From: an archaeon
GTDB taxonomy: Archaea > Nanobdellota > Nanobdellia > Woesearchaeales > ARS49
Reading direction: 5' to 3'
Assembly: GCA_020051845.1 (NCBI GenBank)
Contig: JAGVQG010000056.1
Location: 1-59,942, forward strand
Length of the DNA stretch: 59,942 bases
In this document: positions 12,806-21,672 of the stretch, piece by piece
How positions within the stretch are numbered: the first letter of the stretch is position 1
How the letters are laid out: every line of letters begins with the position of its first letter
Notes under the pieces: generated by a model
What the model was told of the DNA's origin: nothing
Databases searched by the model: none
Seen by the model: the letters and a program-made list of their open reading frames with translations, nothing else
Program-made: the position numbers and the translations under genes

Positions 12806-12970
12806 ATGCGAGACGCGCAGAAGAACACGGCCGAATCCTACGCTCGCGAGATGAAGAGACGCGATCAGCGCATAGAGGAACTCGAGGAGGAACTGCGGAT
12901 GATGCGCAAGTTGTTGCTCAAATCTGTGGGTGAGAAGCTCTCCATCACCGACAGGATGAAGAGACGCTAA
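12806..12970 (+). CDS. 54-aa coiled-coil micro-protein (hypothetical)
   Basis: Translated by hand: MRDAQKNTAESYAREMKRRDQRIEELEEELRMMRKLLLKSVGEKLSITDRMKRR. GGAGTAAGG lies upstream. Confidence 0.35.
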   Translation: MRDAQKNTAESYAREMKRRDQRIEELEEELRMMRKLLLKSVGEKLSITDRMKRR

Positions 12971-13677
12971 CCCCACTGTTCTTTCTTGATGCTCGCGGCA
13001 GGGATTTCGCAGAAAAGCAGCGTCTCCTCGACGCCTTTCACGAACGGTTCTGGTCCGCAGACATAATATACCGCGTTCTTGAGGTTGCGGACATGCCTCT
13101 TGATGGTCTCCTCGCCGATCCTGCCGCGGTGTCCTTGCCAGCCACTGTCCTCGGGTTCACGCGTGAGAGTCTGGATATAACAATGATCCGCGAACTTCTG
13201 GCTGCGATGGGTCAACTCATCCTTGTGCAATATGTCGAGCTGCGTGCGCACGGAATAAATCAGCGTCACGCGGGTCTTCATTCCAGAGTCCTGGATGTGA
13301 CGCAGCATGCTCATCATGGGCGCTATTCCTGTGCCGCCAGCAAGCAGCACGACGTCTGCCGGGACGGGCTCCTGCAATACGAAATTGCCATAGGGACCTT
13401 GCACGATGATCTCATCGCCTTCCTCTTTCTTGAAAAGCTCGGTCGTGAACACGCCGACCTTCTGTATCGTGAGCTCTATCGCGTCATCCATCAAAGGACT
13501 GCTCGATATGGAGTATGATCTCGGCCCGCATTTCGGGTTCTCGATGGTGAGTGTGACGAACTGGCCTGGCTTGAACACGATCTTCTCGGGCGTCTTCGGC
13601 TTCAGAGTGAACGCCTTGACGACGGTGTTGTGTCTTTCGATGGACTGGATGATGAATGGCCTTTTCTGGATGTTCAT
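12967..13677 (-). CDS. FNR-family flavoprotein oxidoreductase (FAD/NAD(P)-binding, no Fe-S domain)
   Basis: RSYSISS (RxYS FAD motif) and LLAGGTGIAPM (NAD(P) motif). Coupled to bcp by a 4-nt overlap. Confidence 0.8.
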   Translation of the reverse strand: MNIQKRPFIIQSIERHNTVVKAFTLKPKTPEKIVFKPGQFVTLTIENPKCGPRSYSISSSPLMDDAIELTIQKVGVFTTELFKKEEGDEIIVQGPYGNFVLQEPVPADVVLLAGGTGIAPMMSMLRHIQDSGMKTRVTLIYSVRTQLDILHKDELTHRSQKFADHCYIQTLTREPEDSGWQGHRGRIGEETIKRHVRNLKNAVYYVCGPEPFVKGVEETLLFCEIPAASIKKEQWG

Positions 13678-14147
13678 GTCCTTTCCCCCACGGCCGATAG
13701 CGCCTCTGATGCGTGCCCTTCTGGCACGACCTGCTGGAATATCTTCATTATGTTCCCATCCTCATCGATGATGAATGTCGAGCGGGCCATGCCGAACGAT
13801 GTCTTGCCATCGACCGTGCGCTTGCCCCAGACACCATATAGAGACGCGACCTCATGGTTCTGGTCGGATAGGAGCTTGAATTTCAATGAATGTTTTTGCG
13901 CGAAGCCCGCATGGCTTTCTGCGCTGTCCGGACTCACACCGACAACCATTATCTTGCGTTTCTCGTATTCTTCGCTGCTATCACGGAACGAGCACGCCTG
14001 GGCAGTGCAACCCGGAGTGTCATCCTTCGGGTAGAAGTAAAGCACGACTCGCTGCCCGCGCAATGATGAAAGAGAGATGTCGTTGCCTTTCGCGTCAGAT
14101 AGCTTGAAATCAGGCGCAACATCACCTTCTTTTAGCGTGATTGACAT
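13674..14147 (-). CDS. bcp: peroxiredoxin, Bcp/PrxQ type
   Basis: YFYPKDDTPGCTAQAC peroxidatic/resolving Cys motif. Confidence 0.9.
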   Translation of the reverse strand: MSITLKEGDVAPDFKLSDAKGNDISLSSLRGQRVVLYFYPKDDTPGCTAQACSFRDSSEEYEKRKIMVVGVSPDSAESHAGFAQKHSLKFKLLSDQNHEVASLYGVWGKRTVDGKTSFGMARSTFIIDEDGNIMKIFQQVVPEGHASEALSAVGERT

Positions 14148-14262
14148 AACAGGATGCCTTTTCTTGACGTATAAATGTCTTGCGCACCACAGCCATCAAC
14201 TCAAACTCGTTTGAGGGAATCTATAAAAGAATCTGGTGCCTACTAATGGTCGGGTGAAGACA

Positions 14263-15099
14263 ATGGAACAAGACGACTTCAACAAAACAGATTACATAAA
14301 ACATGAACTCCTTGGTGTTTTCCTTGACGGATTGATCGCGGAATCCATGGCGCAGCGACGCGAGCTTGTGATCATCGAATCACACGCAGGAAAAGGCAAA
14401 CGATACGCTCTGCCGATGGCATCTGTAGTGAATGCGAATTCAGGACACCGTGCTTACAATGACGACACACCCCTGCTGGCCGCGAGGAAGCTGGAGGCTG
14501 CGCGGAAACAGGGCTTGAGATATCAACTCAATCTGCATGAAGGCAAATTGAAGTGCAGGAAGGATCTCAAGACGTTCATGGACAACTACGCCGGACTGCA
14601 TGCTGCCGAGCAAGCCATACAGGTCAAGGACACCCTATTCGAAGAAGCATTGCTGGACTACCAGCTTCGCCGGTCCAATACCGACCATAACTTCGCGATA
14701 TTCATGGATCCTTCGGAAGAAGTCGCCCTGGGATATTACGACGAGAGTATGGTCAAGGGAATACAACATTGGTTGAAGAACGGCCGCGCCGATGTGATGT
14801 TGTACATGACCCAACTGACGCGCAGGGCACCCTATGTGGCACAGCATGACAAAAAATTGGATGCACTACATGATTCCATCGGCCAAAGGGCTGTGGACTT
14901 CTTCCACAAAATGCGCGGCGGAGCCATGGAATCACTAGACCATTTCATAATAACTGTCGACGACAAAGTAGTCGAGAACAGGCTGATCGACACACACATA
15001 CACGCTTTCGGGCAGTTGTTCCCGGGAAAAGTATACGCGGCCAACACGAACAGGACAACGATGGCGACGTCTGCTGGCGGTTATATGCTCATCCCTTGA
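14263..15099 (+). CDS. RlmJ/DUF519-like protein with degenerate catalytic motif
   Basis: TDYIKHELL...VIIESHAGKGKRYAL parallels RlmJ ADVLKH...DTHAGAGRYQL. The expected DPPY position reads MDPSEE. Confidence 0.4.
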   Translation: MEQDDFNKTDYIKHELLGVFLDGLIAESMAQRRELVIIESHAGKGKRYALPMASVVNANSGHRAYNDDTPLLAARKLEAARKQGLRYQLNLHEGKLKCRKDLKTFMDNYAGLHAAEQAIQVKDTLFEEALLDYQLRRSNTDHNFAIFMDPSEEVALGYYDESMVKGIQHWLKNGRADVMLYMTQLTRRAPYVAQHDKKLDALHDSIGQRAVDFFHKMRGGAMESLDHFIITVDDKVVENRLIDTHIHAFGQLFPGKVYAANTNRTTMATSAGGYMLIP

Positions 15100-15117
15100 G
15101 CACGGGCAGTGCGTAAA

Positions 15118-15127
15118 ATCTATATAC
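15118..15127 (+). promoter_or_regulatory. TATA box for sod
   Basis: ATCTATATAC lies about 30 nt upstream of the GTG 15150 / ATG 15159 start, implying a leaderless or near-leaderless mRNA. Confidence 0.4.
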
Positions 15128-15158
15128 GCCGGCTGCGTAAACGGTATCGGTGATACCG

Positions 15159-15761
15159 ATGCCTTACACTTTGAAACCTTTCACATACGCGAAGGATTCC
15201 CTCGAACCGTTCATGGACAGTCGCACTGTCGAGATCCATCATGACAAGCATCATCAGACCTACGTCGACAAGCTCAACGCCGCTGTCGAGAAGCATCCTG
15301 AGCTGTTCAAGAAGTCGCCCGAGGAACTGCTCAAGGATTTGAACGCTGTGCCTGATGACATTCGCGTCGCTGTCAAGAACATGGGAGGCGGTGTCGTCAA
15401 CCACGACTTTTTCTGGTCGATACTAAAGAAGGACGTCAAACCTTCAGGCCTGGTCATCGAAGCCATAAACAAGCAATGGGGTTCGCTCGACGCTTTCAAG
15501 AAAGCCTTCGGTGATGCAGCTGCAGGCGTTTTCGGCAGCGGCTGGACCTGGCTCGTGTCCAACAATGGCAAGCTGGAGATCATGACGACGTCGAACCAGG
15601 ACAGCCCGTTATCTGTCGGCAAGGTCCCGCTTTTGACGATAGATGTCTGGGAGCACGCGTATTATCTGAAGTACATGAACAAGAGGGTCGATTTCATAAG
15701 TGCGTTCTGGAATATCGTGGACTGGGAAAAGGTCGACGAACACTTCTCGAAGGCGAAATGA
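15159..15761 (+). CDS. sod: Fe/Mn superoxide dismutase
   Basis: HHDKHH, DVWEHAYYL. Confidence 0.93.
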   Translation: MPYTLKPFTYAKDSLEPFMDSRTVEIHHDKHHQTYVDKLNAAVEKHPELFKKSPEELLKDLNAVPDDIRVAVKNMGGGVVNHDFFWSILKKDVKPSGLVIEAINKQWGSLDAFKKAFGDAAAGVFGSGWTWLVSNNGKLEIMTTSNQDSPLSVGKVPLLTIDVWEHAYYLKYMNKRVDFISAFWNIVDWEKVDEHFSKAK

Positions 15762-16466
15762 TCAGATAAGCCGGAATTCCGACAATTCACCGTCGTTCTC
15801 TTTCATCATTGCGCTCTTGAGAGCGATTTTCTTCCCAAGTCTGTTCTTGATCAACCATAGGTCTGACGGCACGACGTTCTTTTCGTCGAGTCCGTCTATC
15901 TTGAACCATCGGGCAGGTCCGTCTTCCGATTTGATCGGTGCGCCTTTCGCGCTGACTGTGGTGAAGAACAGGATGAAGCTGTGCTTGATGATGCCATCGC
16001 CTTCGACACGCTCGTGCAGCACTGCGTTGATGGAGCCGAAAACCGGTTCAAGCCCTGTTTTGGTCTTGATGTGCCTGATGCTCGCGTCCTCGAAGCTTTC
16101 CTCAAGAAGCATCTTACCTCCGATGCAGGTCCAGTAGCCCTTGTACGGCCGTTTCCTGCGCCGGATCATCAGGATCCTGTCCTTGTCCACGCACGCGACG
16201 ATCACGACAGGCACAGGCCCTAATTGCTGGCCCGTGATATGCGAGAATATCGGGATGTAGCGTTCCGCGGTCTTGGTGAGATGGTAATTCTCGCCACGTT
16301 TCTCGAGCAAGCCGTCTTTCTGCATCATCGTGAGGTGATAGGCTAGCGCGTTCGACCTTATTCCCAGTGCCTTCTCGATGTCGCTGAACTTGAACTTGGT
16401 CCTGTCGAGGAACAACTCGAATATCTGCTCGCGTTCCTTTTTGACAAGGCTGCCCGTGTATCTCAT
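15762..16466 (-). CDS. winged-HTH (ArsR/MarR-like) fused to a Nudix-fold domain with a degenerate Nudix box
   Basis: N-terminal FSDIEKALGIRSNALAYHLTMMQKDGLLEK. The Nudix box reads G-x5-E-x7-R-H-I-x-T-K-x-G-L, so the REUxEE glutamates are replaced. It is the last gene of the suf operon, with a 4-nt overlap. Confidence 0.65.
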   Translation of the reverse strand: MRYTGSLVKKEREQIFELFLDRTKFKFSDIEKALGIRSNALAYHLTMMQKDGLLEKRGENYHLTKTAERYIPIFSHITGQQLGPVPVVIVACVDKDRILMIRRRKRPYKGYWTCIGGKMLLEESFEDASIRHIKTKTGLEPVFGSINAVLHERVEGDGIIKHSFILFFTTVSAKGAPIKSEDGPARWFKIDGLDEKNVVPSDLWLIKNRLGKKIALKSAMMKENDGELSEFRLI

Positions 16467-16861
16467 TTTTTCCCCTCATATTCGACTATCGCCATCTTGA
16501 GCACCTTGAATCCGAGCAGCGCGCACTTGAGCCGCATGCCTGATATGGGAACGCCTAACAAATCCAACACTTCCTGCTTGTCCATCGCAATGACATCCGC
16601 GACCTTATTGCCTATGATGTTCTCGGTAAGCATGCTTGTCGCTGCTATCGATATCGCGCATCCTTTGCCGTCGAACTTGACATCTTTGATTATGTCTTTC
16701 TTGACAAGAAGCGTGATGCCGACCTCATCACCGCATGCCGTGTTGACGTCATGCGCATGGCCGTTCGCATTCTTGACGACACCACTGTTCTTGGGATTCC
16801 TGAAGTGGTCGAGGATTATCTCCTGGTACATCTGCTCGTTTGGGAACGTTTTGTTATTCAT
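16463..16861 (-). CDS. sufU: SufU/IscU-type Fe-S cluster scaffold / sulfur acceptor
   Basis: LDHFRNPKN, ACGDEV and GKGCAIS conserved Cys motifs. ATG 16861 overlaps the sufS stop. Confidence 0.88.
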   Translation of the reverse strand: MNNKTFPNEQMYQEIILDHFRNPKNSGVVKNANGHAHDVNTACGDEVGITLLVKKDIIKDVKFDGKGCAISIAATSMLTENIIGNKVADVIAMDKQEVLDLLGVPISGMRLKCALLGFKVLKMAIVEYEGKK

Positions 16862-18066
16862 AGACCGAACACCTTCCTGCAATGCAGCAGCGCGTCGACA
16901 AGCACGTCTATGTCCTCTTTGGTGTTGTATATCTGGAAACTGGCGCGGACGCTTGATTCGAGTCCGAGGCGAGCGTGCAAAGGCATCGCGCAATGATGGC
17001 CGCTGCGGACAGCCACGCCATGATCATCGAGTATCGACGCCACATCGTGCGGCGGTATGCCCTCCATCACGAAAGACACCAATCCGATGCGGTCATCGCT
17101 TCCCAGGATGCTGATGCCAGGCACCTTCTTGAGTTGACGCAATGCATAGTCGGTCAACGTCCGCACGTGGCCAGCGACCTTGTCCATTCCGTATGTCTGC
17201 AGGTAATCGACAGCGGCTGCAAGGCCGATGGCGCCGGCGACATTGGGCGTTCCTGCCTCGAACTTGTGCGGCACGTCATTCCATGTGCTCTTGCTCAGCG
17301 TGACTTCACGTATCATGTCTCCGCCGACGAGGAATGGAGGCATGTGCTCAAGTAGCTCTTTCCGTCCATAAAGCGCTCCGATCCCCGTGGGACCTAGCAT
17401 CTTGTGGCCTGAGAACACAAGGAAGTCGCAGCCGATGTCTTTGACATCGATGGCTGTATGCGAAACGCTCTGGCAGGCATCGACCAATACGACCGCTCCT
17501 GCGTCGTGCGCTCGCCGGGTCATCTCCTTCACAGGATTCAGCGTGCCTAGCACGTTGGAGATTTGCGTGAAAACGACTATCTTGGGCTTTTTCTTGAGGA
17601 ATGACAGGTATTGCTGCTGGTCCAACACACCTCTGCCGTCTATGTCGACGAATGCCAATAGAGCGCCGCGCTCATTGGCGAGCTGTTGCCAGGGGACGAT
17701 ATTGCTGTGGTGCTCCATGACCGTAAGCACAATCAAGTCGCCGCGCTTGAGGTTGGCCATCCCGAATGTCTTGGAGACCAGATTTATTCCTTCGGTGGCG
17801 TTGCGCGTGAAGATGATCTCTTCAGGAGACGAGTTGATGAACGCCGCCACTTTCTTCCTTGCGTTCTCGTAAGCTTCGGTCGCCTCTGCGCTAAGCGTAT
17901 GCACGCCACGATGGACATTGGCGTTCATGGTCTCGTAATACGCCCTTTCCGCGTCGAGCACCGATTCCGGTTTCTGCGACGTCGCGGCGCTGTCCAAGTA
18001 AACCAGCCTTTTTCCGTGCACCTTCCTTGACAATATCGGGAAATCCTTGCCGACTTCTTTAGCCAT
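16858..18066 (-). CDS. sufS: cysteine desulfurase SufS (class V aminotransferase)
   Basis: YLDSAATSQKP, FSGHKMLGPTGIG (PLP Lys) and RSGHHCA (active-site Cys). Confidence 0.93.
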   Translation of the reverse strand: MAKEVGKDFPILSRKVHGKRLVYLDSAATSQKPESVLDAERAYYETMNANVHRGVHTLSAEATEAYENARKKVAAFINSSPEEIIFTRNATEGINLVSKTFGMANLKRGDLIVLTVMEHHSNIVPWQQLANERGALLAFVDIDGRGVLDQQQYLSFLKKKPKIVVFTQISNVLGTLNPVKEMTRRAHDAGAVVLVDACQSVSHTAIDVKDIGCDFLVFSGHKMLGPTGIGALYGRKELLEHMPPFLVGGDMIREVTLSKSTWNDVPHKFEAGTPNVAGAIGLAAAVDYLQTYGMDKVAGHVRTLTDYALRQLKKVPGISILGSDDRIGLVSFVMEGIPPHDVASILDDHGVAVRSGHHCAMPLHARLGLESSVRASFQIYNTKEDIDVLVDALLHCRKVFGL

Positions 18067-18991
18067 TCGAAACCTCCAGTACCGCATCGATCTTTGGACG
18101 CAAGGCCTCGCGGCCCGCGTTCTCAGGCCATTGTTTGATTATGGACTCTATGAACCCCTTGACGATCAACCCGCGCGCTTCTTCGCGGCCGATGCCGCGC
18201 GATTGCAAATAGAACAATTGGGCCTCATCTATCGGTCTGACACTGGCACTGTGGCTTGCCTTGACGTCATTGGCCTCGACTTCAAGTGAGGGGATCGCTT
18301 TTGCGACGGCATCTTTCGAAAGGAGCATCCAGTGGTCTGACAGGAAGCTCTCGGATTTTTGCGCGCGTGCAAGCAATCTCAACATACCGCTAGCCTGCAC
18401 GCTTCCGCTGTTGAGCACGACGCCATTGCGGCTGACATCGGCCTTTGTATGAGGCGAAGAATGTATGACTGCGTTATCAAGCACGATAGAATTATTGCCT
18501 ACCAGGAATTCCCTGTCCATCAACGACGCGCCAGGACCGAGCAGTGTGCTTTGTCTTGTGTATGTGCCTGTCGCATTGATGTGTCCTGCCAATAAAGTGA
18601 GAGATGCGCCGTCTTCCACCAAGAATTCGTGGCGTAGCATGGTGTCGGATTCGTTGACGAGCGTTATGGTCGCTTTGACATCATGTTTGATGAGCACTAT
18701 GTCCAACTCCAGTTTGGTGCCGGGCAGTGGCGTGAGGTCGACGTCGCCGTCTTTGGAGAGCACGACAAAGCGTATGACCGTGTTTCCGAAGCCTCGTTGT
18801 TCCTGGTCCATTATCACGGTGTCTGCCGTCGCTATGGCTAGCAGTGTATGAGGATGTGCGGAAGGAACGACGAGACGCTCGAAGAGCGGAAGTAGCTCGG
18901 CAGGCACGTCTATCTTCGTGCGCTTGTCGACCTTATCCCAACTTGTCTTGAGGAGTTCACGTGCCCTTTCCTGCAGTTCGGAGAAGCTCAT
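18059..18991 (-). CDS. sufD: Fe-S assembly protein SufD
   Basis: SufB/D beta-helix family with [12 protein letters not shown] near the C-terminus. Position between sufB and sufS. Confidence 0.85.
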
Positions 18992-20392: not shown

Positions 20393-21268
20393 TCAGACCA
20401 CCTTCAGTTTGACTTCACCATATCCTTCTTTCTCGATCTTGTCGATGAGTGCCGGACCATCTGTCTGCGTTATGGCGCCGTTCATCATTATGTGGACGCT
20501 GTCAGGCTCCATCTTGCTCGCGTGCTTTGGAAGGTGGGTTATCAGTATGACGCCAAGGCACGGTCCACGTATCTTGTTGAAAGCGTCGCGCACGACGCGC
20601 AGCGCGTCTATGTCAAGGCCGGAGTCTGTCTCGTCGAATATCGCGAACGCGGGCTTTGTGAGCAGGAGCTGCAGCATCTCGACTTTCTTCTTCTCGCCGC
20701 CGGAGAATCCGACATTGAGCTGCCTGTCGATGAAGGCGCGGTCGAGCTTGAGCGCCTTCAGGCTTGCGTTGAGGTCGCGGTTGAAGTCGGCCGCCTTGGC
20801 ATCCTTGCCATACCTTGCCTTGTAAAGATGGAAAAGGAACGTCCCCAGGTTGATGTCTATCTCCTGAGGGTTTTGGAAGGCGAGGAAGATCCCGAGCCTT
20901 GCGCGCTCGTCTGGCTCCAGCCCTAGAACGTTCTTCGAATTCAATGTCACCGTGCCTTTTGATATCTCATAGGCCGGATGGCCTGCTATCGCCATCGCGA
21001 GCGTGCTCTTGCCTGCTCCGTTCGGTCCCATCAAAACGTGCACCTCACCTTGCCTGACAGTGAGGTCGACTCCTTTGAGCACTTCCTTGCCATGGACGCT
21101 GACGTGCAGGTTCTTCACTGCCAGCACCGCGCGTCGAGGGCACTTCTTCCGCGAGTCCTCGTCCTTGCAGCCGCAGCCGCAACCGAGGTCCTTGATCGTC
21201 CTGGGAGGCACTCCCTCGTCGTATTGATCGAGTATCTTCATTGCTTCTTCGAATCCCATTTCATTCAC
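20393..21268 (-). CDS. sufC: Fe-S assembly ATPase SufC with an about 50-aa Cys-rich N-terminal extension
   Basis: Walker [13 protein letters not shown] signature FSGGEKK and Walker [13 protein letters not shown]. The N-terminus contains [18 protein letters not shown]. The ATG overlaps the upstream regulator by 8 nt. Internal GTG starts at 21127 and 21118 cannot be excluded. Confidence 0.9.
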
Positions 21269-21629
21269 CTTGGTAGCATAATTTGCAGGCTGGCGCGACG
21301 TTTTTGTCCATCTTCAGGTGCATTTTGCACAGAAGCTTGGCCTTGTTCGCGTCCTTGACAAGATGCTGGAGCTGTGCGTAAGCCGATGCCTGGTCTTTGA
21401 CTGTCTTGGCGCGTTCGCGCACCTTTTTCACGAACGTCGGAGGCAGTTCCATGTCTGTGCCGCGCTTGCCGCTGATGTAATGGCTGACAGCCGCTCCTGT
21501 GACCCCGAGCAGTTCCGCTATCGTCTTCTGGTCCTTGCCGAGTTCCTTTAGCGCACGCGCGAGTTCGCGGCGCAGCGCTGGAAGCAGGTAGAATGCCTCT
21601 ATCTCCTGCGGTTGCAATACCTTGAGCAT
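21261..21629 (-). CDS. HTH transcriptional regulator with C-terminal Cys cluster (first gene of suf operon)
   Basis: HTH QKTIAELLGVTGAAVSHYISGKRG. The C-terminus LLCKMH...[10 protein letters not shown] has three Cys and one His. Confidence 0.65.
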   Translation of the reverse strand: MLKVLQPQEIEAFYLLPALRRELARALKELGKDQKTIAELLGVTGAAVSHYISGKRGTDMELPPTFVKKVRERAKTVKDQASAYAQLQHLVKDANKAKLLCKMHLKMDKNVAPACKLCYQGE

Positions 21630-21648: not shown

Positions 21649-21672
21649 AGTTATTAACAATAGTTAATAACT
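21649..21672. promoter_or_regulatory. perfect 10-bp inverted repeat (candidate operator) between TATA box and suf operon start
   Basis: AGTTATTAAC-AATA-GTTAATAACT. It is immediately flanked by the TATA-like GATATATAAATC (21673-21684) and lies 20 nt from ATG 21629. Confidence 0.6.

What the first reader, a model, noticed from the sequence alone, without database searches (positions are those of the whole stretch)
15762..16466. Last gene of the suf operon is a wHTH fused to a Nudix fold with an inactivated Nudix box
The N-terminus is ArsR/MarR-like. In the C-terminal domain the Nudix box reads G-KMLLE-E-SFEDASI-R-H-I-K-T-K-T-G-L, so the metal-binding glutamates of REUxEE are replaced by H, T and K. 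Catalytically dead Nudix domains act as ADP-ribose/NAD-metabolite sensors in bacterial NrtR regulators. NrtR has the opposite domain order, Nudix then wHTH. Placing such a sensor inside an Fe-S biogenesis operon, with a 4-nt overlap with sufU, suggests nucleotide-metabolite control of Fe-S assembly, which I have not seen described.
Basis: partly seen in the sequence, partly recalled or inferred. Interest (0 to 1): 0.6.

Follow-up and report, generated by a model that had tools for sequence, protein, structure and literature searches.

The report
Dead-Nudix archaeal regulator appended to suf
The gene encodes a DNA-binding switch with a catalytically disabled Nudix "sensor" domain from an undescribed family in tiny DPANN archaea, but its place behind the iron-sulfur (suf) genes is a recent deletion accident in this lineage, and its predicted targets are nucleotide-clean-up and peroxiredoxin genes, not suf.

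Summary
ORF 15762-16466 (-) encodes a 234-aa protein with an ArsR-like winged helix, then a Nudix fold whose box reads RHIKTK instead of REUxEE. Its ATG overlaps the sufU stop by 4 nt.

- **Sensor-regulator: supported.** About 176 homologues, nearly all Woese-/Pace-/Nanoarchaeota, keep the architecture. In 120 aligned sequences the first Glu is never Glu and the last is Lys in 113. At least 57 of 80 loci carry the same TATA box plus 16-bp palindrome (CTCGAAT-TA-ATTCGAG) directly upstream of the gene. 53 of 80 face a divergent Nudix hydrolase with intact catalytic glutamates.
- **Suf link: not supported.** None of 80 related loci has a suf gene within 10 kb. The closest relative (82% identity) keeps its own TATA/operator in a ~390-nt stretch after sufU, where the window has 27 nt. 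The suf promoter carries a different palindrome beside its own Cys-bearing HTH gene.

A motif matrix picks two outlier sites in the 1.33-Mb genome:
- window 14200-14215, between the Bcp peroxiredoxin-FNR genes and an RlmJ-like gene;
- another contig, between a HAD nucleotidase-like gene and an AAA_28/HD dNTPase-like pair.

Most likely it is a nucleoside-polyphosphate-sensing repressor. The ligand is unknown. It is a new variant of the NrtR idea, built independently.

The parts
15762..16466 (-). Gene for the 234-aa wHTH + pseudo-Nudix regulator (P0001)
   Evidence: ORF and translation. Pfam NUDIX E 2.3e-11. 176 homologues of the same length.
16257..16466 (-). N-terminal winged helix-turn-helix (residues ~1-70). 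R37, S38, N39, Y43 and H44 are invariant in the family.
   Evidence: Sub-threshold ArsR-type hits. Model secondary structure H10-18, E24-26, H27-34, H38-50, E54-57, E60-63. Invariant columns.
15837..16214 (-). Nudix-fold domain (residues ~85-210), the presumed ligand sensor
   Evidence: Pfam. PDB MTH1 E 1e-8. Foldseek hits to MTH1, MutT2 and BdRppH.
16050..16118 (-). Degenerate Nudix box G117..L139, with RHIKTK in place of REUxEE
   Evidence: Translation. Column counts in 120 homologues.
16463..16466 (-). ATGA overlap of the sufU stop codon and the regulator start codon. No TATA-like element in the 50 nt upstream.
16455..16481 (-). Deletion scar. These 27 nt stand where the 82%-identical relative L081 has about 390 nt (L081 1948-2337: sufU 3' end, a small divergent ORF, and the regulator's TATA box and operator).
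   Evidence: blastn colinearity. L081 sequence.
16463..16861 (-). SufU-type scaffold gene (NifU_N), upstream neighbour
   Evidence: Pfam E 1e-31.
14200..14215 (.). Predicted operator CTCAAAC-TC-GTTTGAG. It is the only match to the family operator core in the whole window.
   Evidence: Regex. PWM score 16.6, second best in the genome with the third best at 8.7. The site is conserved at the same place in L081.
14220..14229 (.). TATA box (TCTATAAAAG) abutting the operator, in the 115-nt divergent region between bcp and the RlmJ-like gene
   Evidence: Sequence. Same TATA-2nt-operator geometry as the family promoter.
12967..14147 (-). Bcp-type peroxiredoxin (13674-14147) plus FNR-like flavoprotein (12967-13677), a predicted target operon
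   Evidence: Pfam AhpC-TSA E 2.5e-42. NCBIfam FNR-type reductase hits.
14263..15099 (+). It occupies the 'partner' position on the other side of the TATA box and operator.
   Evidence: No Pfam hit. Geometry.
21649..21672 (-). suf promoter palindrome AGTTATTAAC-tatt-GTTAATAACT after TATA GATTTATATATC. It is unrelated to the P0001 family operator.
   Evidence: Sequence.
21261..21629 (-). First gene of the suf operon: HTH_3 protein with a C-terminal Cys cluster, the likelier suf regulator
   Evidence: Pfam HTH_3 E 1.2e-5. Translation.

Best explanation
P0001 belongs to an undescribed family of one-component transcription factors in DPANN archaea (Woese-/Pace-/Nanoarchaeota). An N-terminal ArsR-like winged helix reads a 16-bp palindrome, CTCRAAN-NN-NTTYGAG, that abuts a TATA box. 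The palindrome implies a dimer. The C-terminal Nudix fold derives from MutT/NudG-type (d)NTP pyrophosphohydrolases. It has lost its metal-binding glutamates, one of them replaced by Lys, and most likely binds a nucleoside polyphosphate that changes DNA affinity.

In most relatives the protein sits on its own leaderless promoter, which implies autorepression. That promoter shares its TATA box with a divergent Nudix hydrolase gene whose catalytic glutamates are intact. Further sites lie at HAD and NT5C nucleotidase genes and a cytidine deaminase gene.

In this genome a difference of about 360 bp from the closest relative removed the gene's own promoter, its operator and a small divergent ORF. 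The gene was thereby fused to sufU with an ATGA overlap. It is now most likely made from the suf transcript, but it does not regulate suf.

Its two predicted operators in this genome are:
- at the bcp peroxiredoxin-FNR / RlmJ-like divergent promoter (window 14200-14215);
- at a HAD-nucleotidase-like / AAA_28 + HD(dNTPase-like) divergent promoter on contig C40.

Shown here: architecture, box decay, motif conservation, site locations and the deletion. Inferred: DNA binding, repression, ligand class and co-transcription with suf.
For: **Architecture and box**
-.
- Box degenerate across 120 homologues and in all 21 rows of its tree group.

**Operator**
- Conserved TATTTAAATA-AT-TCCTCGAAT-TA-ATTCGAGTA lies just upstream of the start codon in at least 57 of 80 loci whose proteins are only 33-61% identical.
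- 77 of 92 operator-core matches in 1.1 Mb of loci are at that promoter.

**Conserved neighbours**
- Divergent Nudix hydrolase with catalytic glutamates intact in 53 of 80 loci (NudI/MutT-like).
- Operator upstream of HAD-regulator operons in L045, L061, L049 and L069.
- Sites at NT5C / cytidine deaminase in G010.

**Own genome**
- PWM built from other genomes gives two hits, 17.5 and 16.6, with the third best at 8.7.
- 60 local shuffles give a mean of 0.05 hits at that level, and 0 of 60 shuffles give two.
- Both hits lie in divergent intergenic regions, one beside the HAD orthologue.
- The window site is conserved in the 82% relative.

**Co-occurrence control**
- In 10 related genomes without the regulator, 0 of 8 pattern matches abut a TATA box.
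- In genomes with it, 7 of 11 do.

**Deletion**
-.

**Origin of the sensor domain**
- Stand-alone relatives of the sensor domain have intact boxes and are MutT/NudG-like.
Against: - No experiment: DNA binding, oligomeric state, ligand and sign of regulation are all inferred.
- The window site and the C40 site score far below the training sites (about 17 versus a median of 44 bits). The main reason is that this genome is 53% GC and its TATA part differs.
- At bcp a second, proximal TATA (14170-14177) could be the real promoter. That would put the operator upstream of it, where repression is less certain.
- The MTH1 base-pocket residues are mostly not kept (F72->H, F74->R, M81->K, N33->S/T, W117->I/V; only D120 is kept; alignment), so the ligand cannot be named.
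- The same-genus genome G001 has only an intact-box paralogue and no bcp operator, so the regulon is very lineage-specific.
Confidence: 0.7

Rival explanations
1. One reading: the protein is the metabolite-sensing regulator of the suf operon, so Fe-S assembly is under nucleotide-metabolite control.
For: Physical position as the last suf gene with a 4-nt overlap. Synteny suf-regulator-SOD-bcp is shared with the 82% relative L081.
Against: - 0 of 80 homologous loci have SufB/C/D/S/U within 10 kb.
- L081 keeps an independent promoter and operator for the regulator.
- The suf promoter carries a different perfect palindrome, and the operon starts with its own HTH_3-Cys protein.
- The window holds no family-motif match other than 14200-14215.
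- The DNA-reading residues R37, S38, N39, Y43 and H44 are unchanged, so a new specificity is unlikely.
Confidence: 0.05
2. Adaptive rewiring: the fusion to sufU is functional. It puts the regulator's dosage under the suf promoter (Fe-S or oxidative-stress signal), and so couples Fe-S stress to peroxiredoxin and nucleotide clean-up genes.
For: - Loss of the autoregulated promoter, with translational-coupling geometry and a GAGG 8-11 nt upstream of the ATG.
- The neighbourhood is an oxidative-stress cluster of suf, SOD, bcp and FNR.
- The predicted operator sits at bcp.
Against: - Seen in a single genome.
- A second difference of about 220 bp on the other side of the gene suggests plain genome streamlining.
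- No expression data.
- More repressor during stress would lower bcp expression unless the ligand also rises.
Confidence: 0.15
3. It is still an enzyme: a Nudix hydrolase with an unusual active site tethered to DNA, or a bifunctional enzyme-regulator like the NrtR members that keep an intact box.
For: - More distant wHTH-Nudix relatives keep an intact REUxEE (P0137, P0140, P0141, P0149, P0170, P0240, P0268).
- E123 and R131 are invariant.
Against: - All three REUxEE glutamates are gone here (H, T, K).
- The residue aligned to the further MTH1 metal ligand E100 is not conserved in the family (H/Y/S/A, D here).
- In NrtR such boxes gave no detectable activity (PMC2330246).
Confidence: 0.04
4. 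NrtR-like NAD/ADP-ribose sensor with swapped domains, regulating NAD salvage.
For: - Weak NCBIfam hits of the Nudix domain to NadM-Nudix ADPR pyrophosphatases.
- One predicted target pair includes an AAA_28 protein related to the NadR kinase domain.
- Stand-alone relatives give weak hits to the NCBIfam ADPR-responsive repressor model listed as 'NtrR' (NF050029).
Against: - Stronger similarity to MTH1, MutT and NudG.
- No NAD biosynthesis gene (nadA/B/C/D/E, pncB, nadV) was seen beside any operator.
- The conserved partners are NTP-type Nudix, HAD/NT5C nucleotidases and cytidine deaminase.
Confidence: 0.1

Closest known systems
NrtR, Nudix-related transcriptional regulators of bacterial NAD metabolism (Rodionov et al. 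2008, PMC2330246). The family includes Bacteroides AraR (PMC4666351).
   Same: - A Nudix fold with a decayed signature serves as the effector domain of a wHTH regulator.
- Palindromic operators lie close to the promoter.
- Autoregulation.
- Some family members keep an intact box.
   Different: - Domain order is reversed (wHTH first).
- The wHTH is ArsR-like, not the NrtR/COG4111-type C-terminal domain.
- The Nudix domain is nearest to MutT/MTH1/NudG-type enzymes, not to ADPR pyrophosphatases.
- The hosts are archaea, and the operator abuts a TATA box.
- The regulon is nucleotide clean-up genes (plus bcp here), not NAD synthesis.
- The likeliest reading is an independent invention.
MTH1/NUDT1 and bacterial MutT/MutT2/NudG (d)NTP pyrophosphohydrolases
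   Same: - Best sequence and fold matches of the C-terminal domain.
- The P-x-D motif equivalent to MTH1 P118/D120 is invariant as P200-S201-D202.
- K23 of MTH1 aligns with the invariant R103.
   Different: - The catalytic REUxEE glutamates are replaced.
- Most MTH1 base-pocket residues are replaced by polar or basic ones.
- Fused to a DNA-binding domain.
ArsR/SmtB-type archaeal wHTH regulators such as Pyrococcus Phr (PDB 2p4w)
   Same: Closest, but weak, matches of residues 8-62. The fold order is that of a winged helix.
   Different: All hits are below family thresholds. There is no sign of a metal site. The sensor is a separate Nudix domain.
RbkR, archaeal riboflavin kinase/regulator fusion (PMC5397151; abstract seen)
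   Same: An archaeal one-component regulator in which an enzyme-family domain senses a nucleotide-like metabolite.
   Different: The enzyme fold is different, RbkR keeps its enzyme activity, and the regulon is different.

Membership tests
NrtR family | N-terminal Nudix domain followed by the family's characteristic C-terminal wHTH domain | tested here: not met
   The wHTH is N-terminal (residues ~1-70) and the Nudix domain C-terminal (87-197). N-terminal hits are ArsR-type.
NrtR family | Nudix domain homologous to ADP-ribose pyrophosphatases | tested here: not met
   Best PDB and fold hits are MTH1, MutT2, BdRppH and UDP-X diphosphatase. Stand-alone relatives score best with MutT/NudG/PRK08999 models. 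NadM-Nudix hits are weaker.
NrtR family | Perturbed Nudix signature GX5EX7REUXEEXGU | tested here: met
   RHIKTK here. Family consensus is R[LQVI]VK[E>Q,D]K.
NrtR family | Palindromic operators at its own promoter and target promoters; NAD-metabolism regulon; ADP-ribose effector | tested here: inconclusive
   Palindromic operators and an autoregulatory position are found in relatives. The regulon is not NAD synthesis. The effector is not testable here.
Nudix hydrolase superfamily (PF00293), as an active enzyme | Nudix fold | tested here: met
   Pfam 44.3 bits against a cut-off of 21.1. Model and Foldseek.
Nudix hydrolase superfamily (PF00293), as an active enzyme | Metal-binding glutamates of REUxEE | tested here: not met
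   E->H132, E->T135, E->K136. The loss is family-wide at positions 132 and 136.
ArsR/SmtB wHTH regulators | Match to family models above threshold | tested here: not met
   HTH_20 18.4 bits against 27; NCBIfam HTH_metalloreg 20.7 against 55. There is a fold-level resemblance only.
suf (Fe-S assembly) operon component or regulator | Conserved linkage with suf genes across homologues | tested here: not met
   tblastn of SufB/C/D/S/U against 80 loci (+-10 kb) gave 0 hits. Linkage is seen only in the window and in L081/L082.
suf (Fe-S assembly) operon component or regulator | Its operator at the suf promoter | tested here: not met
   A different palindrome lies at 21649-21672. There is no PWM or regex match in the suf region.
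Undescribed DPANN wHTH-pseudoNudix regulator family (this report; also earlier scan notes) | About 235 aa; invariant R37-S38-N39, Y43-H44, R103, R106-P107-Y108, G116-G117-K118, E123, R131, E152, K161, S201-D202, W204 | tested here: met
   All are present in P0001.
Undescribed DPANN wHTH-pseudoNudix regulator family (this report; also earlier scan notes) | Own promoter with TATA + CTCRA-N6-TYGAG operator, and a divergent active Nudix partner | tested here: not met
   Both are missing in this genome. Both, or the operator alone, are present in relatives. The motif survives at two other promoters of this genome.

The most novel reading that the evidence does not exclude
The dead MutT/MTH1-like domain senses damaged or non-canonical nucleotides (for example 8-oxo-(d)GTP or 2-oxo-dATP) or a stress dinucleotide such as Ap4A. 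The factor would then read nucleotide-pool damage and switch on sanitising enzymes (Nudix, HAD/NT5C, HD). In this lineage it would also switch on the peroxiredoxin-FNR pair. Its capture by the suf operon would wire Fe-S/oxidative stress directly into that response. That would be a new kind of oxidative-stress sensor in archaea.
Probability: 0.12. Interest if true: 0.8.

Novelty: new variant of a known kind. Interest (0 to 1): 0.45.

Why it matters
DPANN archaea have almost no characterised transcription factors, and they depend on salvaged nucleotides. This family offers three testable handles: a recognisable sensor domain, a sharply defined operator fused to the TATA box, and a small coherent regulon of (d)NTP pyrophosphatase, nucleotidases, deaminase and dNTPase-like HD protein. 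Together they give a way into how these organisms control their nucleotide pools.

It is also a second, independent case of a Nudix enzyme turned into a sensor, after NrtR.

For this window the practical message is negative. The suf position is a by-product of deletion and should not be read as evidence for metabolite control of Fe-S assembly. The suf operon has its own candidate regulator and operator.

Tried and rejected
- **Suf linkage in relatives.** Searched 80 loci for suf, SOD, Prx and the suf HTH gene by tblastn. None found.
- **Divergent Nudix partner in the window's genome.** Searched with protein, tblastn and an HMM. No orthologue found, only four unrelated intact-box Nudix genes.
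- **Naming the ligand from MTH1 pocket residues.** Mapping shows the pocket is largely remodelled, so this was abandoned.
- **Assigning the active relatives to a characterised enzyme.** All NCBIfam hits are below cut-off.
- **Tree to ask whether box loss happened once.** The tree is poorly resolved. At least 6 changes are needed, so there is no simple story.
- **Same-genus genome G001.** It has only an intact-box paralogue at a contig edge and no bcp operator, so it gives no help.
- **Literature.** No paper in the held library describes an N-terminal-wHTH/C-terminal-Nudix regulator. This is absence in that library only.
- **A weaker promoter inside sufU.** No TATA-like element lies in the 50 nt before the ATG.

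Full report
**1. What is there**

The ORF 15762-16466 on the minus strand encodes 234 residues.
- Upstream on the same strand lie an HTH_3 protein with a Cys-rich tail (21261-21629), SufC, SufB, SufD, SufS and a NifU_N/SufU-type scaffold gene (16463-16861).
- The sufU stop codon and the ATG of the ORF overlap as ATGA.
- Downstream, a convergent Fe/Mn superoxide dismutase gene ends at 15761. The two stop codons abut.
- Further on lie an unassigned 278-aa gene (14263-15099, +) and a bcp peroxiredoxin plus FNR-like flavoprotein pair (13674-14147 and 12967-13677, -).

**2. The protein**

- Pfam NUDIX matches residues 87-197 (E 2.3e-11).
- The N-terminus gives only sub-threshold ArsR-type hits.
- The AlphaFold model (34-sequence alignment, mean pLDDT 82.8, pTM 0.67) has the helix / strand / helix / helix / beta-hairpin order of a winged helix. 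A poorly ordered linker (76-82) follows, then a Nudix fold, then a conserved C-terminal hairpin.
- Foldseek and phmmer against the PDB put MTH1/NUDT1, M. smegmatis MutT2, BdRppH and a UDP-X diphosphatase on top.

**3. The family**

The word-index search found 176 homologues. All are about 235 aa, and nearly all come from Woesearchaeota/Nanoarchaeota metagenome bins. In 120 aligned sequences:

| Position in REUxEE | Residues seen |
|---|---|
| first Glu (132) | L/Q/V/I, never Glu |
| second Glu (135) | Glu in 81 |
| third Glu (136) | Lys in 113 |

Many other positions are invariant: R103, R106-P107-Y108, Y111-W112, G116-G117-K118, E123, R131, E152, K161, S201-D202, W204. In the wHTH, R37-S38-N39 and Y43-H44 are invariant. 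This is the signature of a domain that still binds something but no longer holds the catalytic metals.

The exhaustive profile search found 76 clusters at E <= 1e-30.
- The closest clusters all have dead boxes.
- More distant wHTH-Nudix proteins keep REUxEE.
- Stand-alone proteins of about 160 aa that match the sensor domain strongly all keep an intact box. Their best, sub-threshold, family hits are MutT, NudG and PRK08999.
- A tree of the Nudix parts is poorly resolved. It places P0001 in a group of 21 rows that all have dead boxes, and it needs at least six changes of box state overall.

**4. The suf link does not hold**

I fetched 80 loci from species-representative genomes, with proteins 33-61% identical. 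I searched them with this window's SufB, C, D, S, U, the suf HTH gene, SOD and Prx. Not one hit turned up within 10 kb.

The only relative with the same neighbourhood is an 82%-identical protein on an 8-kb metagenome contig (L081). Its gene order is sufS, sufU, regulator, SOD, unknown, bcp, FNR.
- In L081 a stretch of about 390 nt (1948-2337) separates the aligned part of sufU from the regulator. The window has 27 nt there.
- That stretch holds a small divergent ORF.
- Immediately before the ATG it holds ATATTTATGTA-AT-CCCTCAAAGTCATTTGAGG, the family's TATA box plus operator.
- The window also lacks about 220 bp between the regulator and SOD.

The ancestral state is therefore an independent, autoregulated gene. 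The fusion to sufU is a recent deletion.

The suf promoter itself has TATA GATTTATATATC followed by a different perfect palindrome, AGTTATTAAC-tatt-GTTAATAACT.

**5. What is conserved instead**

- **Partner enzyme.** In 53 of 80 loci a Nudix hydrolase of 155-170 aa lies divergently, mostly 40-130 bp upstream. Its REUxEE glutamates are intact, and it has an insertion of about 17 residues before the Nudix helix. It resembles NudI and a Methanosarcina MutT-related protein.
- **Operator.** In at least 57 of 80 loci the sequence just upstream of the regulator's start reads TATTTAAATA-AT-TCCTCGAAT-TA-ATTCGAGTA. This is a TATA box followed after 2 nt by a near-perfect inverted repeat (core CTCRA-N6-TYGAG), with the ATG a few nucleotides later. 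Of 92 core matches in 1.1 Mb of loci, 77 are at this promoter.
- **HAD operons.** In a sub-clade a HAD hydrolase gene precedes the regulator in an operon, and the palindrome lies upstream of HAD.
- **Further sites with the same TATA-operator geometry in related genomes.** One lies between an NT5C deoxyribonucleotidase and a small membrane ORF plus cytidine deaminase. Others lie next to a pair of small unknown proteins.
- **Control.** Ten related genomes without the regulator have the bare pattern at background frequency, and 0 of 8 matches abut a TATA box. In genomes with the regulator, 7 of 11 do.

**6. Targets in this genome**

The assembly is 1.33 Mb, 96.6% complete and 53% GC. It has no orthologue of the partner hydrolase.

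I built a position matrix from the other genomes' sites, with the spacer masked, and scanned both strands. It gives two outliers, 17.5 and 16.6 bits, with the third best at 8.7. In 60 locally shuffled genomes the mean number of hits at that level was 0.05, and no shuffle gave two.

- **Window site.** TTTTATAGAT-TC-CCTCAAACGAGTTTGAG on the minus strand. The palindrome is at 14200-14215 and the TATA box at 14220-14229, in the divergent region between bcp-FNR and the 278-aa gene. It is the only core match in the whole window. An equivalent site (ATTATATAGG-TT-CCCTCAAGTTCATTTGAC) sits at the same place in L081, although the flanks have diverged.
- **Contig C40 site (2749-2780).** It lies between a HAD hydrolase (TIGR02253/YjjG-like) and an AAA_28 protein followed by an HD + HD_assoc_2 protein of the dNTP-triphosphohydrolase type. 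This HAD is homologous to the one that forms an operon with the regulator elsewhere.

**7. Mechanism proposed**

A dimer binds the palindrome next to a quasi-symmetric TATA box that serves both directions.
- On the side where the operator covers the transcription start, binding should block polymerase recruitment. That is repression, and autorepression in relatives.
- On the other side it lies at the BRE position, where the sign of regulation is open.
- The pseudo-Nudix domain has Lys in place of one metal ligand and a ring of invariant Arg/Lys. It probably binds a nucleoside polyphosphate without metal and releases, or tightens, DNA binding.

The regulon theme is removal or recycling of (d)NTPs: Nudix pyrophosphatase, HD triphosphohydrolase-like protein, HAD/NT5C nucleotidases and cytidine deaminase. 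In this lineage bcp joins it. All of this is inference from sequence. Nothing was measured.

**8. Comparison with known systems**

The logic is that of NrtR (PMC2330246), but the defining NrtR features are not met:
- the domain order is reversed;
- the wHTH is of another type;
- the Nudix domain comes from another branch;
- the regulon is not NAD synthesis.

I found no description of this architecture as a regulator in the paper library. Earlier notes of this scan describe the same family in other DPANN genomes, and look-alikes in CPR bacteria. I reached the partner and operator conclusions from my own data, so they agree, but they are not independent experiments.

**9. Verdict**

- Observation: confirmed.
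- Sensor-regulator reading: supported.
- Suf reading: refuted as a conserved or regulatory link.
- New in this window: the promoter-deleting fusion to sufU, the loss of the partner enzyme, and operators at the bcp and HAD/HD promoters.

Noticed in passing
window 21649-21672 and 21261-21629 (-): The suf operon promoter has TATA GATTTATATATC followed by a perfect 10+10 palindrome, AGTTATTAAC-tatt-GTTAATAACT. The first gene is an HTH_3 protein with a C-terminal Cys cluster (CKMH...CKLC). This is a likely Fe-S-sensing suf repressor and its site.
   Followed up: partly
window 15142-15158: A perfect 7-bp inverted repeat, CGGTATC-GGT-GATACCG, lies between the SOD TATA box (about 15115-15127) and the likely ATG at 15159. 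It is a possible separate operator for SOD.
   Followed up: no
window 15759-15764: The stop codons of the convergent SOD and regulator genes abut with no spacer. The 82% relative has about 220 bp more here. Transcripts must overlap or terminate inside the opposite gene.
   Followed up: partly
L012:5884-6703, L011:1359-2193, L018:7039-7855, L103:722-1466: A conserved pair of small proteins without any family hit: about 150 aa with 'YTTWRYIH...AEGR', and about 125 aa with 'AYSSWYF.HD...MQYVMDYTVNKS'. It sits next to TATA+operator sites of the regulator in at least four genomes.
   Followed up: partly
L001:9477-9944 and 50 other loci: The divergent partner Nudix hydrolase carries an insertion of about 17 residues (DF.N.PKDT..HW...FEK) between the GX5E part and the REUxEE helix of the Nudix box.
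   Followed up: no
own genome contig C40:2064-4658: A HAD hydrolase lies divergent from an AAA_28 (NadR-kinase-like) protein and an HD + HD_assoc_2 (dNTPase-like) protein. They share one TATA box with the predicted operator.
   Followed up: partly
G001:C47:45-548 (L108): The same-genus genome has only a Nudix gene with an intact box (REAKEETGL) related to the sensor domain. It is cut at the contig start. Its bcp is divergent from SOD and has no operator.
   Followed up: partly
window 16463-18087: The suf cluster includes SufS and a SufU-type scaffold with three Cys residues, and about 60 residues between the second and third Cys.
   Followed up: no
L081:1920-2270 (-): A 116-aa ORF without any family hit lies divergent from the regulator in the closest relative, in the position of the partner Nudix. 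It is absent from the window.
   Followed up: no
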